From Escherichia coli (lineage in GTDB: Bacteria > Pseudomonadota > Gammaproteobacteria > Enterobacterales > Enterobacteriaceae), in assembly GCF_017348835.2 (NCBI RefSeq), contig NZ_CP071375.1: a stretch of 64,000 bases of DNA; one strand, 5' to 3'. Positions 39,001 through 45,000 of the stretch are shown here, in pieces. The position numbers are program-made. Positions within the stretch are counted from its first letter, which is position 1; each line of letters opens with the position of its first letter.

Positions 39001-42000
39001 GCCCACCATAATTTTGGTGTAGCTAAGCGCGCGACATAAAAAAAGACGCAGACGCGTCACGTGTCGCCAGTATGGTTATATTTCGGGGTTCCAATCCCGG
39101 CACCTGATTTTGCAGGTGCGGGTAAAAGATACCGCTTTCGGTTGAAAACGGCAAGGGGAAGTCGTGGAATAGAGATCGCAGATTGTTATAAATATACACA
39201 ATAGTTAATGTTAACAAAGACGGCACATATATTAACTTTACTCTCAATCTGCTGAATAGTTTATCGCATGTAATTCTCGGGTCATATAGTGGATACCCTC
39301 CTTCTTTTCTTTCATCCCCTCTTGCCTCACCATAAAAGCAAACGAAAAAATTGCTGAACGAGTTATCTGAAGTAAATGCTCAAAATGGTGAATAAAATCA
39401 CTTTCTTTGATAAAAAGAATATCTTCTATTAGTTGATAAGATTCGTAAATGTCCTCAGGTTTATCACTTTTATGTACAACTAAAAACTTATGCTCTAAAC
39501 CATTGCGCCATTCTTTATAGAAAGCCAACTCCCCACCCTTATCTTTATTCAGGTCGGTAGCAATACTGTACAGCGCCAGAAGCCCTGGTGATTTTACCTT
39601 TTCAAATAATTGTCTTCTGTTATCAACATCTAACTGCCAGAAATTCTGAAAATAGATATTCTTCTGAGATGTACCTTTTTTTGTTGTTGGGTAAAGATTA
39701 TAAAGTTCACATATGGCTACCGCAATTTTATCAAGAATACCAAAGCAAAGACGAAATGCCGTCCTGATTTTTTCAATTTCTATTCCTAAAACTTCGTCAT
39801 TATACAATTCCAGAAAATGGCTTTCGTACTTAATGTAATCCGTATTTTGTGGATGAAGATAATCAAAATAAAGATGGCGTGCGAGTGAAAACTCCGATTT
39901 AAGGCGATTTAATACCATCTCCATGGGAATGATAAAATCACCTGTTACACCGCCTCGCGAAGCAATCACAAGATCATCTGTAGCACTCCCTACACATGGG
40001 CAATACAGGCCATGTTCTGATAAAGTCAGATGATTTCTAAGACAAAACTGTCGATATGGGCTTAACGCTTCGAACTCTTGTTGTGTAAGTGCTTCATCGT
40101 GTTCGTCAGTTTCATCATCAACAGCATATTCTGCGATTTTCTCGTTAGTCTGCGCTATGCGTTCTAAATAGAACGATTCCCATTGTGGTGGGATATTTTT
40201 TGATACAGACGCTTTAATATATCCTGCTCTCACTTCTTTTAGTAACTTGATTGAAAATGAAGATGAAATAAGATTGAGGACCATAAGTGACATCGAACGG
40301 TTGACCCAAGCCTGTGGTATATCTAATCCCTTAAGATTGGTAAGATCATAATATCTCAATGACTCACTGAGCCGAAATTGACTTCTTAATGAATTAGCCA
40401 AATTAACAGATAGTTCAGCCTGAAATTCCTCCTGCTCCTCAGCAGATAGCTTAAAAGAACGCCAGTAGATATTTTTTAAGGAAACCAATTCTTCTATCGA
40501 TTTGAATGTATGGTCATTGGGGTTAGTAATGCTCACCAGATTAGATAGCGCATTACCATAGTTATAATAGTAAAGGCACTCTCCTAACACTGATATAAAT
40601 GCTTCTTTGTTATCTTCCATCAGGTTGCAACCAAGCTCTGACGCATTTTTATTATTTTGCATCTGCCCGATGTCAACAAGAGCACCCGCAATGTTCGCCA
40701 ATACTATAAAGTAGTTATCGTTCCTGATTGTTATTCTTTCCAGTTTGTTCAGGAACGCAACTGACTGTTGATAAGATTCGTCAAATCTTCCAATATCAAC
40801 CAGTTGGCTAATGAAATTACTTTCATCGACAAGTTCTTTTGTTATCAAAATAAATTTTCCTTATACAGAGGATTTCGGTGCTTCAACAGGAGGTATGCCC
40901 TCACAGGAGACATCTATAACTATCGCTGATAAGCGGTCTCTTTTATCAACCGGCACAGTTTCATTAAGCATATTTTCCATTGCACTGGCGTTTTCAGGTT
41001 GAGATGTATTTTTCGCCAAATGAGGCAGGGAATTCGGTCGAGCAGAACCAAACCAAAAAACCAGATAGATACCGTGACCAGCAGCATCGGGGTTTTTAGT
41101 ATAAAGCTTGTCCAATTGCCCATTAAGTGCAGTCCAGACATCACGATGATAATCACGCTTTATCTCGATAGGTATTTTTATCTGCGGTAGTGAAACAATG
41201 ATATCTGCCCTTTTATCAGAAACCATGTGTCCTTCTGGTTCACAGCTTATTTTTAATGGATTAAGCCGGACACGGAGTAAATCCAGAAAAATATTACGGC
41301 AACTCTCTTCAGGTTTAGGCGTTAGGGTACGGCCATAGCTGTCTTCATTCCAGAATTGCTTATAAATATCGGTATTTTCATTGGCAATTCGGTTAGAAAT
41401 ATCCCGTATATGATCAAGCAATAATGAGTAAAGATCCATTATGTTGGCAGGCGTTTTATTCATCAATGTACTTACAGTCTGCTTCCAGTCGGCATGATGG
41501 AACTGTGATTCTCTATAACGAATTTTCTGATTGCTTTGGGCATGTGAGAGATGATCCCGATAACTTTCACATTCAGGCAGCAGTAATAAGCGCTCAAGTA
41601 CTTCACTAGCATCGTATAAAGAAATAGAAGAAACTTCGCTAATCAATGCTCTGATAAATTCTGCATAATCCCAGCTATTTCTTGAACCATGACTTTCATC
41701 TACTGGATGATAAGCATTAGGGAAATGCGTTGCTGAAACTCTAATGATGGTTTCTAATTGAATTAAAGAAAGCTCTTGATTATTATTTTCTCTCCGTCTT
41801 CTGGTATTACCAGTTAACTCACGCACAATCCAAATGATCTCAGGATCTGACTTAGCCTCAGATACAAACAAATCATAAGCCTGTTCGGGTTGTAGCAAAT
41901 AACAACACGATAACCAAATATGATAGTTAACCTTCCTTAATACACCTCGTCGATTAACCATAAGTTGAGATAGTTCCAGTAATTCTTCGTGTATCTGTGG

Positions 42001-45000
42001 ACGTGCCAGTAGCCATTCAACCAAGCTTTGTGTATGATTAATATCATCAGGATATTTTTTAGCAAAATACATAACTAAAGGGATGACGTGAGAATCTCGT
42101 AGTGATTTCTCATGTAGAACATAGTTCAATGCCATAATATGCTGAAATTTATTTTTCATACAAAAGTCTATTATATAACTATATGTTTCTATGAAAAGAT
42201 CTTCTCGATACAGTATTACATACTTTTTCCATGGTATTGAATATATAGTGATAACATTGTCTTCTTTAACATGGATTGGTAATCTCGCATCCAATGTTAT
42301 TAACATTTTTAGCAATTCATTATCCCAAAGAGTTATGTCATCTTCCATTTCCCATAGTTCGTCACTTCCCGCCAATATAGCATACCACCATTCATAATAT
42401 TCACCTTTTATTAAGGAGTCATTAATATCATCTATAGACGGAAGATCTGCACGGCCTAATAGAGCCACAAGACCAGAAATGGCATCTACAGCACTTTTAT
42501 CCCCAAGATTCGATGAAAGACGCTCAAAGCAGGATAGTTTTTCATCTACATCGTTATATAATGCATAATAAATATATGCAACATGCTTAAGCCATCCTAA
42601 ATGTTCACCCGAAACAATCTGTTCTCTTAATTGCTGAAATTCTACTTTATCTGAATCAATAATATTTTGTTTTTCTCTCTCCCTTTCTATCCTGCTGATA
42701 TTAATTTTTACCCGCCAATCATCAATCTCACAGACTAATGCACCTTCTAAAATAGAAAAAAGCTCATTACTCATTCCACCATAAGTAATAAGAAAATCAA
42801 ATACCTGCTGTGGCGGAGCATCACAACTCCAAAGAGTAGGAAATGCTAATTGATAAATAAACTTTGTCTTATCTGTAGTACCTCCATTACTCGATAAATA
42901 GTGTGTGAAACGGGATAATAAAAGCTCACGAGGAATGACGCCAAATGTACTTTGTCCAAACTCATGTAAAAAAAGATATCCTGTATTATATCTAGTAAAA
43001 GATGTTATTGCTGCATCTATAATATCTTCATGCTGCCAATCACGTTCTTTTAGCAACTGGACAATCTGGGTTGTTTTATTATCAAAACTACTATAATGCT
43101 CTTTATACCAGTGATGAACATACAGACATATCCATATCTGTTCAGCAGTATACTGATCTTTCGTATTAAGGATAATCACTAGACCACTTTCAATATAATA
43201 CAAAACTTCATGACGATTTCTTGGTGATGAATACCAGTTGTCTATATTTTCATTTTGGTATTGATAGAGGCATTCAAATATTGTCATTATCTCCTCGGCA
43301 GGAACAACATCAATTATCCCCCATAGAGATCCTACCGGCAAACGTTCTTTAATAATACTTAAGGTATCAATCAGGAGTTTTGCCACATCCAATGCAGAAA
43401 AATAATCTTTATAAAGCAATTGAATAATGTGGTTACGCAATCGAATATTGTCGTGATTAATCTCGTTCAATTCAGAATAAATTTTGACGACTTCTTTAAT
43501 ACCTGATAGACCCGAGTGTATTAATGCCGTTATCGCTTCTTCTTTCTCGGCATATGAATGACGTTCAGATTTAACAACATCAATTAAATCCTCATTCAAT
43601 GACAATATTGGGGTTGCGACAGATAGAGATTCGAGAATAAGCATACGCAGAGAAAATCGCGATTTGGGATCATGAATAATCAGGCGCAAGTGTGCTTCCA
43701 TCTCCTCGCTCACGAAGCCATTCAAATTAGAAGAAAAGCCGTGGTTTCTAAACCAAGGATTGAACCGCCCCGGAAATCCTGGAGACTAAACTCCCTGAGA
43801 AAGAGGTAAACAGGATGACTAAAAATACTCGTTTTTCCCCCGAAGTCCGTCAGCGGGCGATTCGTATGGTTCTGGAAAGTCAGGATGAATATGACTCACA
43901 GTGGGCGGCAATTTGTTCCATTGCCCCAAAGATTGGCTGTACGCCGGAGACTCTGCGTGTCTGGGTTCGCCAGCATGAGCGGGATACCGGGAGTGGTGAT
44001 GGTGGACTCACCACCGCTGAACGTCAGCGTCTGAAAGAGCTGGAACGTGAAAATCGTGAACTGCGCCGCAGTAACGATATCCTTCGCCAGGCTTCCGCTT
44101 ATTTTGCGAAGGCGGAGTTCGACCGCCTCTGGAAAAAATAATGCCACTGCTGGATAAGCTGCGTGAGCAGTACGGGGTCGGACCGGTATGCAGCGAACTG
44201 CATATTGCCCCGTCAACGTATTACCATTGTCAGCAACAGCGACATCATCCGGATAAACGCAGTGCCCGTGCGCAGCACGATGACTGGCTGAAGAAAGAGA
44301 TACAGCGCGTATACGATGAAAATCACCAGGTATACAGTGTGCGTAAAGTCTGGCGTCAGTTGTTACGGGAAGGTATCAGAGTGGCCAGATGCACTGTGGC
44401 ACGTCTCATGGCAGTTATGGGACTTGCCGGTGTTCTCCGGGGTAAAAAGGTCCGCACTACCGTCAGCCGGAAAGCCGTTGCCGCATGCGACCGCGTAAAC
44501 CGTCAGTTCGTGGCAGAACGTCCAGACCAGTTGTGGGTGGCTGATTTTACCTGGGTAAGCACATGGCAGGGCTTCGTTTATGTGGCGTTCATCATTGATG
44601 TGTTCGCCGGATACATCGTGGGATGGCAGGTCTCATCATCCATGGAAACAACATTCGTGCTGGATGCACTGGAGCAGGCGTTGTGGGCCCGTCGGCCGTC
44701 CGGCACAATCCATCACAGTGATAAAGGTTCTCAGTATGTATCGCTGGCCTACACGCAGCGGCTTAAGGAAGCCGGATTACTGGCATCAACAGGGAGTACT
44801 GGCGACTCGTATGACAACGCGATGGCTGAGAGCATCAATGGTCTTTACAAAGCGGAGGTAATACACCGTAAGAGCTGGAAAAACCGGACAGAAGTGGAAC
44901 TGGCCACACTAACGTGGGTGGACTGGTATAACAATCGACGATTGCTGGAAAGGCTGGGCCATATTCCTCCGGCAGAAGCAGAAAAAGCTTATTATGCTTC

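What the first reader, a model, noticed from the sequence alone, without database searches (positions are those of the whole stretch)
39244..43725. AT-rich two-gene operon (954 aa + 534 aa) with PD-(D/E)xK-like and HEPN-like motifs: candidate uncharacterised defence or toxin module
Two long co-directional minus-strand ORFs 12 bp apart lie in DNA visibly much more AT-rich than the surrounding backbone, inside an island that also carries TA and mobile-element genes. I cannot assign either protein to a named family and neither has a P-loop. The 954-aa product ends with ...KRADIIVSLPQIKIPIEIKRDYH... (hydrophobic-D then E-x-K about 11 residues later, the restriction-endonuclease-fold pattern). The 534-aa product carries ...YKEWRNGLEHKF... 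(R-x4-H, the HEPN RNase signature) near its C-terminus. Two putative nuclease effectors fused to large helical N-terminal regions in an AT-rich island is the typical architecture of anti-phage defence loci, but it does not match the gene architecture of any named system I can recall. The 5' end is 35 bp from an IS629 copy with the frame open into the IS, so the first gene may be truncated or promoter-less here.
Basis: partly seen in the sequence, partly recalled or inferred. Interest (0 to 1): 0.8.

Follow-up and report, generated by a model that had tools for sequence, protein, structure and literature searches.

The report
IS-truncated Erebus antiphage gene plus HEPN
The larger gene is a broken copy of a known anti-phage sensor (EruA of the Erebus/Avs10 family) that lost its first 388 codons, including its ATPase switch, to an insertion sequence; the gene behind it is an intact, never-tested TPR-HEPN RNase gene that travels with EruA in enteric bacteria, so this is a degraded named system, not a new one.

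The parts
40861..43760 (-). EruA remnant. It corresponds to residues 389-1354 of the intact 1354-aa Erebus NACHT/STAND protein. The listed ORF is 40861-43725 with a TTG start; PGAP calls an ATG at 43701.
   Evidence: NCBIfam NF058535 scores 649.6 bits over profile positions 399-1318 of 1318, below the 1000-bit cut-off. The DNA is 98.3% identical to the intact N17 gene, and that homology stops exactly at 43760.
40912..41352 (-). C-terminal PD-(D/E)xK (restriction-endonuclease-fold) effector domain of EruA, called DUF8371 in recent Pfam. Catalytic candidates are E829 (41239-41241), E831 (41233-41235), D841 (41203-41205), E854 (41164-41166) and K856 (41158-41160).
43761..45070 (+). IS3-family insertion sequence (IS629/IS1203-like, 1310 bp) with terminal inverted repeats TGAACCGCC... 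and ...GGCGGTTCA. It replaces the EruA promoter and codons 1-388.
   Evidence: The flanking triplets are GAT and CTG, so there is no target-site duplication. The transposase ORFs lie at 43815-45028.
40849..40860 (-). 12-nt intergenic spacer. An AAGGA Shine-Dalgarno overlaps the EruA stop codon and precedes the TTG start of the HEPN gene.
   Evidence: Sequence. The gap is 12 nt in the four cassette loci where gene calls allowed it to be measured.
39244..40848 (-). Intact TPR-HEPN gene (534 aa). The N-terminal TPR array is roughly 40114-40848 and the HEPN_LA2681 domain is 39319-39930. R448 is at 39505-39507 and H453 at 39490-39492.
39130..39153 (-). Terminator-like hairpin about 90 nt downstream of the HEPN stop codon. 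It is a candidate end of the operon.
   Evidence: Consensus scan only; not tested.
31010..32497 (+). tRNA-Asn (31010-31085) and the adjacent tyrosine integrase (31196-32497). Together they mark the left boundary of the island that carries the locus.
   Evidence: The layout matches the island in E. coli N17 and PE164.
45071..48498 (+). 5'-truncated intimin-like Ig-repeat gene on the far side of the IS. This is the other edge of the IS-associated deletion.
   Evidence: RefSeq annotates it as 'Ig-like domain-containing protein; missing N-terminus; internal stop' in the identical PE164 locus. NCBIfam gives partial intimin matches.

Best explanation
The locus is a decayed copy of an Erebus (EruA; 'Avs10' family) anti-phage cassette on a tRNA-Asn integrative island. 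Shown: the native gene encodes a 1354-aa STAND-type P-loop NTPase (Walker A at residue 35, Walker B-like LFIDALDE at residue 74), followed by a roughly 800-residue helical region and a C-terminal PD-(D/E)xK nuclease domain. Inferred from the family literature: the helical region binds a phage protein (reported as the major capsid protein for Avs10), and binding lets the NTPase module oligomerise. Inferred by me: oligomerisation assembles the nuclease domains into an active DNase that aborts infection. In Enterobacterales, eruA is followed after exactly 12 nt by a TPR-HEPN gene. I read that gene as an autonomous TPR-sensor/HEPN-RNase module that was captured into the eruA operon and acts in parallel with it, because both genes occur alone in other lineages and EruA has its own effector domain. 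In this window, an IS629-like element and an associated deletion removed the promoter, the start codon and codons 1-388 of eruA, which is the entire NTPase switch. The 954-aa ORF is therefore a pseudogene remnant that cannot be activated in the normal way. The HEPN gene is intact, but it has lost the operon promoter, so whether it is expressed is unknown.
For: Identity and truncation. NCBIfam EruA scores 649.6 bits over profile positions 399-1318 for the window ORF. The 98.3% identical intact E. coli N17 protein scores 1129.8 bits over positions 1-1318, above the 1000-bit cut-off. Homology ends exactly at the IS inverted repeat, at 43760/43761, which is intact residue 389. The missing 5' part is nowhere else in the window. 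The IS has no target-site duplication, and its other flank is a truncated Ig-repeat gene. Walker A and Walker B columns are invariant in the family and lie in the deleted part.

Nuclease.

HEPN.

Linkage. The cassette occurs in E. coli, Citrobacter braakii, C. youngae, Klebsiella quasipneumoniae and metagenomic contigs, in different neighbourhoods, with concordant divergence of EruA/HEPN of 66/76, 83/95.5 and 87.5/96%. The 12-nt gap was measured in four of these loci. EruA stands alone at 50% identity or less: Serratia fonticola, three plasmids, and none of the 25 other reference-genome EruA loci has a HEPN hit. HEPN stands alone at about 50% identity in Budvicia, Cellvibrio, Pseudomonas, Vibrio parahaemolyticus and a metagenome, and a more distant Paraburkholderia relative (26.6%) is also solo.

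Family function. The preprint reports that Avs10 (Erebus/Hypnos/bNACHT64) senses major capsid proteins and that effector domains are required for toxicity.
Against: No expression or phenotype data exist for this copy. Pfam NACHT itself is not significant on the intact N-terminus (E=1.3), so the 'NACHT' label rests on the curated NCBIfam name plus the Walker motifs. I could not read the original Erebus paper (van den Berg 2024), so I do not know which homologue or construct was tested, or whether this enterobacterial clade senses capsid protein. The conserved 12-nt spacing and the SD overlapping the eruA stop could mean functional coupling rather than parallel action. Minus-strand promoter-like sites exist inside the remnant, so some expression cannot be excluded.
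Confidence: 0.82

Rival explanations
1. In the enterobacterial clade the cassette is a true two-component Erebus subtype. The TPR-HEPN protein would be an obligate partner of EruA, for example a second effector activated by the EruA oligomer or a guard of it. Loss of the EruA NTPase would then silence the whole module.
For: The 12-nt spacing is invariant and the SD overlaps the eruA stop. The pair is co-inherited in at least five different neighbourhoods and hosts down to 66% EruA identity, with concordant divergence. Every HEPN homologue at 76% identity or more that I examined is EruA-linked.
Against: EruA keeps its own intact, invariant nuclease domain. EruA works as a solo gene in most lineages, and full-length HEPN relatives at about 50% identity are solo in five contexts. 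There is no detectable homology between the HEPN TPR region and the EruA sensor. NCBIfam has no partner model that hits the HEPN protein.
Confidence: 0.25
2. This is the first reader's reading: the two ORFs as they stand form a working, NTPase-less defence or toxin module, a sensor-nuclease plus a TPR-HEPN RNase.
For: Both catalytic motif sets are intact. The preprint notes sensor-effector defence proteins that lack a STAND NTPase, namely Dsr1 and a Streptomyces HEPN protein that share the Avs7 sensor. The same truncated allele is present in two pig E. coli genomes.
Against: The 5' end is an IS junction with no promoter and no native start. The nearest ATG has its GGAG only 1 nt upstream. The remnant is 98.3% identical to an intact gene, and the truncated allele is identical or nearly so in the two genomes that carry it, so the event is recent and not an evolved architecture. 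Promoter-like sites are fewer than in shuffled sequence: 12 against 17.7. In characterised STAND systems the NTPase is needed for activation.
Confidence: 0.05
3. The HEPN gene is the only relevant functional unit here. It would be a standalone abortive-infection or toxin gene that happens to sit beside unrelated debris, and its adjacency to EruA would have no biological meaning.
For: Standalone homologues are widespread in integrase, Tn7-like, ICE and defence-island contexts that carry AbiEii, Fic, ArdA or Cap4-nuclease neighbours.
Against: The cassette, with its fixed 12-nt gap, is conserved across hosts and neighbourhoods. That is hard to explain by chance adjacency.
Confidence: 0.1

Closest known systems
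Erebus anti-phage system, protein EruA (NCBIfam NF058535; named by van den Berg et al. 2024; grouped as 'Avs10 (Erebus/Hypnos/bNACHT64)' in bioRxiv 10.64898/2026.01.04.697583)
   Same: The window ORF aligns to profile positions 399-1318 of the EruA model, and its intact 98.3% identical homologue matches the full length above the curated cut-off. It has the same architecture: N-terminal P-loop NTPase, long helical region and C-terminal conserved domain.
   Different: The window copy lacks residues 1-388, which is the whole NTPase, and scores below the cut-off. In the enterobacterial clade the gene is followed by a TPR-HEPN gene that most EruA loci lack.
Hypnos, protein HyoA (NCBIfam NF058534)
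   Same: It is a distant relative. The intact homologue scores 155 bits and the window ORF scores 63 bits over its C-terminal 410 residues.
   Different: Both scores are far below the 1200-bit cut-off, so this is a different family.
Avs/AVAST STAND NTPases with PD-(D/E)xK (Cap4/Mrr-type) effectors, such as SeAvs3 and SeAvs7
   Different: In Avs1-4 and Avs7 the nuclease is N-terminal. In EruA the NTPase starts at about residue 30 and the nuclease is at the extreme C-terminus.
HEPN_LA2681 family (Pfam PF18733; Anantharaman et al. [quoted passage not shown]
   Same: ORF2 is a full-length member. It has the TPR fusion, and the Rx4H motif is conserved.
   Different: No experimental work on this family was found. 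The operon link to an EruA-type STAND gene is not mentioned in that survey.
NTPase-less sensor-effector defence proteins, such as Dsr1 and the Streptomyces HEPN protein that carries an Avs7-type sensor
   Same: They have a repeat-type sensor fused directly to an effector. This is a plausible model for how the standalone TPR-HEPN protein works.
   Different: There is no detectable similarity between the ORF2 TPR region and the EruA sensor. Similarity to the Avs7/Dsr1 sensor was not tested.

Membership tests
Erebus EruA (NCBIfam NF058535 equivalog) | Full-length match at or above the curated cut-off of 1000 bits | tested here: not met
   The window ORF scores 649.6 bits over profile positions 399-1318 only. 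The intact 98.3% identical N17 homologue scores 1129.8 bits over positions 1-1318. The window ORF is therefore a fragment of an EruA gene, not a complete member.
Erebus EruA (NCBIfam NF058535 equivalog) | [quoted passage not shown] | tested here: not met
   This region is deleted from the window copy: residues 1-388 are replaced by the IS. It is present in intact homologues, with GDPGAGKT at residue 35 and LFIDALDE at residue 74, in invariant columns.
Erebus EruA (NCBIfam NF058535 equivalog) | Conserved C-terminal domain (DUF8371, PF28130) | tested here: met
   The C-terminal 260 residues align at 42-88% identity with 19 homologues. PF28130 is listed on close homologues.
Erebus EruA (NCBIfam NF058535 equivalog) | Confers phage resistance and responds to phage major capsid protein | not testable with these tools
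   This is known only from the literature for the family. The tested homologues could not be identified.
NACHT domain (Pfam PF05729), tested on the intact homologue | Significant match to the NACHT profile | tested here: inconclusive
   NACHT matches at i-Evalue 1.3 over the Walker A only. AAA_16 gives 0.015 and nSTAND3 gives 0.25. The curated NCBIfam and RefSeq names do say NACHT.
PD-(D/E)xK nuclease superfamily | Restriction-endonuclease alpha/beta core fold | tested here: met
PD-(D/E)xK nuclease superfamily | Conserved acidic residues and an ExK motif on the core strands | tested here: met
   E829/E831, D841 and E854-x-K856 are invariant across alignments A2 and A3. Nuclease activity itself was not tested.
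HEPN_LA2681 (Pfam PF18733) | Significant full-length domain match | tested here: met
   The match is 1.2e-40 over model positions 8-204 of 204, at residues 307-510.
HEPN_LA2681 (Pfam PF18733) | The Rx4-6H catalytic motif of HEPN RNases | tested here: met
   R448-N-G-L-E-H453 is present, and R and H are invariant in 118 of 118 homologues. RNase activity is not testable here.
HEPN_LA2681 (Pfam PF18733) | Fusion to TPR repeats, as described for the family | tested here: met
Known defence systems in PADLOC-DB v2.0.0 (2023) | Any significant model match | tested here: not met
   The only hit is a marginal LmuA match (E=0.011) to the nuclease motif of ORF1. ORF2 and the intact EruA have none. That library predates the Erebus description.

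The most novel reading that the evidence does not exclude
Enterobacterales carry an unrecognised two-gene Erebus subtype. In it, a translationally coupled TPR-HEPN RNase co-operates with the EruA NLR-like DNase, either as a dual DNA/RNA effector or as a backup sensor. Independently, the widespread standalone TPR-HEPN(LA2681) protein would be an unnamed single-gene anti-phage system. The window would then hold a natural 'EruA-dead, HEPN-intact' allele.
Probability: 0.3. Interest if true: 0.5.

Novelty: new member of a known kind. Interest (0 to 1): 0.27.

Why it matters
For annotation, a 'hypothetical protein' in pig E. coli strains is really an IS-decapitated eruA, and scans that look for P-loops or full-length models will miss such remnants. 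For biology, the locus is one example of an anti-phage NLR-like gene inactivated by IS activity on a mobile tRNA-Asn island. The comparative work also shows a clade-specific, tightly spaced EruA-TPR-HEPN cassette and a large, untested family of standalone TPR-HEPN genes in mobile or defence contexts. Those are reasonable targets for phage-defence assays, but the window copy is not the one to test.

Tried and rejected
1. PADLOC-DB 2023 gave no real hit for either protein or for the intact EruA.

2. The tool's Pfam-A gave nothing for ORF1, even at E<=10.

3. PHROGs gave nothing for either ORF.

4. PDB sequence searches gave nothing for the nuclease domain except a chance EGFR match, and only TPR hits for ORF2.

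6. I looked for the missing eruA 5' part elsewhere in the window with blastn and tblastn and found none.

7. I tested whether the ORF2 TPR region is related to the EruA sensor. hhalign probability was 0.08%, so I rejected the idea.

8. I looked for a conserved gene upstream or downstream of EruA across divergent loci. Only near-identical islands share neighbours.

9. The promoter scan showed no enrichment over shuffled sequence, so it is uninformative.

10. Synonymous versus nonsynonymous counts between the window and N17 (18/29 for the remnant, 13/13 for HEPN) are too few, and mostly pre-date the truncation, so they say nothing about relaxed selection.

11. Literature: the original Erebus paper is not held. 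There is no mention of EruB, LA2681 or DUF8371 in any experimental paper. The Avs10 preprint's stored supplements are cut and contain none of the four accession, author and domain terms I searched for.

12. I considered a toxin-antitoxin reading of the pair and dropped it. Neither protein resembles an antitoxin, and both occur alone.
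Full report
**Observation.** The window has two co-directional minus-strand ORFs, at 40861-43725 (954 aa) and 39244-40848 (534 aa). 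They are 12 nt apart, and an AAGGA Shine-Dalgarno overlaps the first stop codon. GC is 0.33-0.40 over 39000-43500, against about 0.50-0.60 on both sides. An IS3-family element begins at 43761, which is 35 nt upstream of the listed ORF start, and the frame stays open about 8 codons into it. The quoted motifs are present.

**What ORF1 is.** PADLOC-DB (2023) and the tool's Pfam-A gave essentially nothing. NCBIfam release 20 matched the ORF to NF058535, 'NACHT domain-containing antiphage protein EruA'. The score was E=1.4e-194 and 649.6 bits, below the curated 1000-bit cut-off, and the match covered only profile positions 399-1318 of 1318.

Megablast against 5,426 complete E. coli genomes found the locus in just 8. 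Two pig isolates, PE164 and F2_81, carry the window's allele at 100% identity, annotated 'hypothetical protein'. Six human isolates, N17 among them, carry a 98.3% identical locus in which the gene is 4065 nt and annotated 'NACHT domain-containing protein'. That intact 1354-aa protein scores 1129.8 bits over the full EruA profile, above the cut-off.

**The truncation.** Aligning the two versions shows that homology stops exactly at the IS terminal repeat, at 43760|43761 (TGAACCGCC...). This corresponds to residue 389 of the intact protein. The lost part holds Walker A (GDPGAGKT, residue 35) and a Walker B-like LFIDALDE (residue 74), both invariant across the family.

The IS is 1310 bp (43761-45070) and has no target-site duplication: the flanks are GAT and CTG. 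Its other flank is a 5'-truncated intimin-like Ig-repeat gene. No trace of the missing eruA segment exists elsewhere in the window. This was therefore an IS-associated deletion or recombination, not a simple insertion.

**Literature on the family.** Erebus and Hypnos were named by van den Berg et al. 2024; that paper is not held. A 2026 preprint groups 'Avs10 (Erebus/Hypnos/bNACHT64)' among the STAND families whose TPR-like sensors bind phage major capsid protein. It states that effector-domain mutants abolish toxicity for all the families tested. A 2026 plasmid paper still calls the Erebus mechanism 'unclear'. I could not establish which homologue was tested.

**The C-terminal nuclease claim.** In a 16-sequence full-length alignment and a 20-sequence C-terminal alignment, reaching down to about 36% and 42% identity respectively, E-P-E-G-H-M, a downstream D and E-x-K are invariant. 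In the window ORF these are E829/E831, D841 and E854/K856.

Pfam NACHT itself is not significant on the intact N-terminus (E=1.3). That label therefore rests on the curated NCBIfam name plus the Walker motifs.

**Are the two genes one system?** In favour: the EruA-12nt-HEPN cassette recurs in E. coli, Citrobacter braakii, C. youngae, Klebsiella quasipneumoniae and metagenomic contigs. It sits in several different neighbourhoods and shows concordant divergence. EruA/HEPN identities to N17 are 66/76, 83/95.5 and 87.5/96%, and the gap is 12 nt in every locus where it could be measured.

Against an obligate partnership:
- EruA homologues at 50% identity or less have no HEPN neighbour and no other conserved neighbour. 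This holds for Serratia fonticola and for Pantoea, Bradyrhizobium and Vibrio plasmids. None of the 25 other reference-genome EruA loci has a HEPN hit, and the 19 complete enough to inspect downstream show no shared neighbour.
- Full-length HEPN homologues at about 50% identity are solo genes in integrase, ICE, Tn7-like or defence-island settings. Examples are Budvicia, Cellvibrio (with AbiEii, Fic and ArdA nearby), Pseudomonas, Vibrio parahaemolyticus (near a Cap4-nuclease gene) and a metagenome. A more distant Paraburkholderia relative is also solo.
- EruA retains its own nuclease.
- The HEPN TPR region is unrelated to the EruA sensor.

I therefore favour the view that an autonomous TPR-HEPN module was captured into the eruA operon in one clade. 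I give about 0.25 to a true two-component subtype.

**Mechanism (committed).** In the intact cassette, EruA is held inactive. Its helical region binds a phage structural protein; for this clade that is inferred from the Avs10 report, not shown. The NTPase module then oligomerises, and the C-terminal PD-(D/E)xK domains assemble into an active DNase, which aborts infection. The TPR-HEPN protein probably senses a ligand through its TPR array and cleaves RNA through the Rx4H site, independently of EruA.

In this window eruA has lost its promoter, start codon and NTPase, so the 954-aa ORF is most likely an inert remnant. The nearest ATG (43701, used by PGAP) has its GGAG only 1 nt upstream. Promoter-like sites are not enriched: 12 against 17.7 in shuffled sequence. 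HEPN may or may not be transcribed.

**Context.** The island starts at tRNA-Asn 31010, next to a tyrosine integrase. It carries an IS66 copy and a MazF/ChpB-like TA pair. In N17 the same island type sits at a different tRNA-Asn, between yeeO and cbl. There it carries a RelE/ParE TA instead, plus a GajA/AriA-like ATPase upstream of eruA that is absent from the window.

**Verdict.** The finding is real and defence-related, but it is not an unknown system. It is an IS-decapitated copy of a named anti-phage gene plus a Pfam-classified HEPN gene. I rate its novelty as a new member of a known kind. The clade-specific EruA-HEPN pairing and the untested standalone TPR-HEPN family are the only modestly new points. 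Interest is 0.27.

Noticed in passing
window 43758-43763 and 45068-45073: The 1310-bp IS3-family element has no target-site duplication (GAT on one side, CTG on the other). It joins eruA codon 389 to a 5'-truncated intimin-like Ig-repeat gene, which implies an IS-mediated deletion or inter-IS recombination rather than a simple insertion.
   Followed up: partly
window 31010-31085 versus L001 2211-2286: The same island type (integrase, integrase-domain gene, TA pair, HTH, 155-aa gene, HEPN, eruA) is integrated at different tRNA-Asn genes in different E. coli strains. In the window it lies next to tRNA-Ser/tRNA-Asn. In N17 it lies between yeeO and cbl.
   Followed up: partly
window 37270-38013 versus L001 5796-6456: The TA cargo at the same island position differs between strains. 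The window, PE164 and Klebsiella L048 have a MazF/ChpB-like toxin with a MazE-like antitoxin. N17 and Citrobacter have RelE/ParE (Gp49) with an HTH.
   Followed up: no
L001 13933-15489: In the intact N17 island, a 518-aa AAA ATPase with strong GajA/AriA-type PADLOC matches (1e-23 to 1e-17) lies divergently upstream of eruA. It is missing from the window, presumably lost in the same deletion.
   Followed up: no
window 33063-35262: An IS66-family element (tnpA/tnpB/tnpC) is inserted in the island between the tyrosine integrase and the integrase-domain gene. It is absent from the N17 version.
   Followed up: no
proteins P0207, P0208, P0235, P0236: Some distant EruA homologues (about 36-37% identity, about 1395 aa) carry an H-NS domain (PF00816). 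Others have lysine-rich C-terminal tails after the nuclease domain. Both suggest DNA-tethered variants.
   Followed up: no
L009, L045, L048, L019 versus L001: Across cassette loci, EruA diverges faster than its HEPN neighbour: 66 vs 76%, 83 vs 95.5%, and 87.5 vs 96% identity. This fits sensor diversification in EruA.
   Followed up: partly
window 38209-38873; L001 6953-7638; L007 4129-4814; L048 11086-11762: A 153-157-aa hypothetical gene and an overlapping SfsB/Nlp-like HTH_35 gene (68-73 aa; phrog_769 'transcriptional repressor') lie directly downstream of the HEPN gene in three island versions (the window's own, N17's and Citrobacter braakii's). A same-sized gene pair occupies that position in Klebsiella.
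   Followed up: no
window 14624-14873: There is a tight cluster of tRNA-Arg(tct), tRNA-Arg(tcg) and tRNA-Met(cat) on the minus strand.
   Followed up: no
proteins P0163, P0165, P0166, P0168, P0169, P0174: Databases hold several other partial EruA products. Some are N-terminal fragments of about 890-935 aa without the nuclease domain. One, from E. coli, is a 945-aa C-terminal fragment from a 59%-identical lineage. Some may be contig-end artefacts, but independent disruptions of eruA may be common.
   Followed up: no
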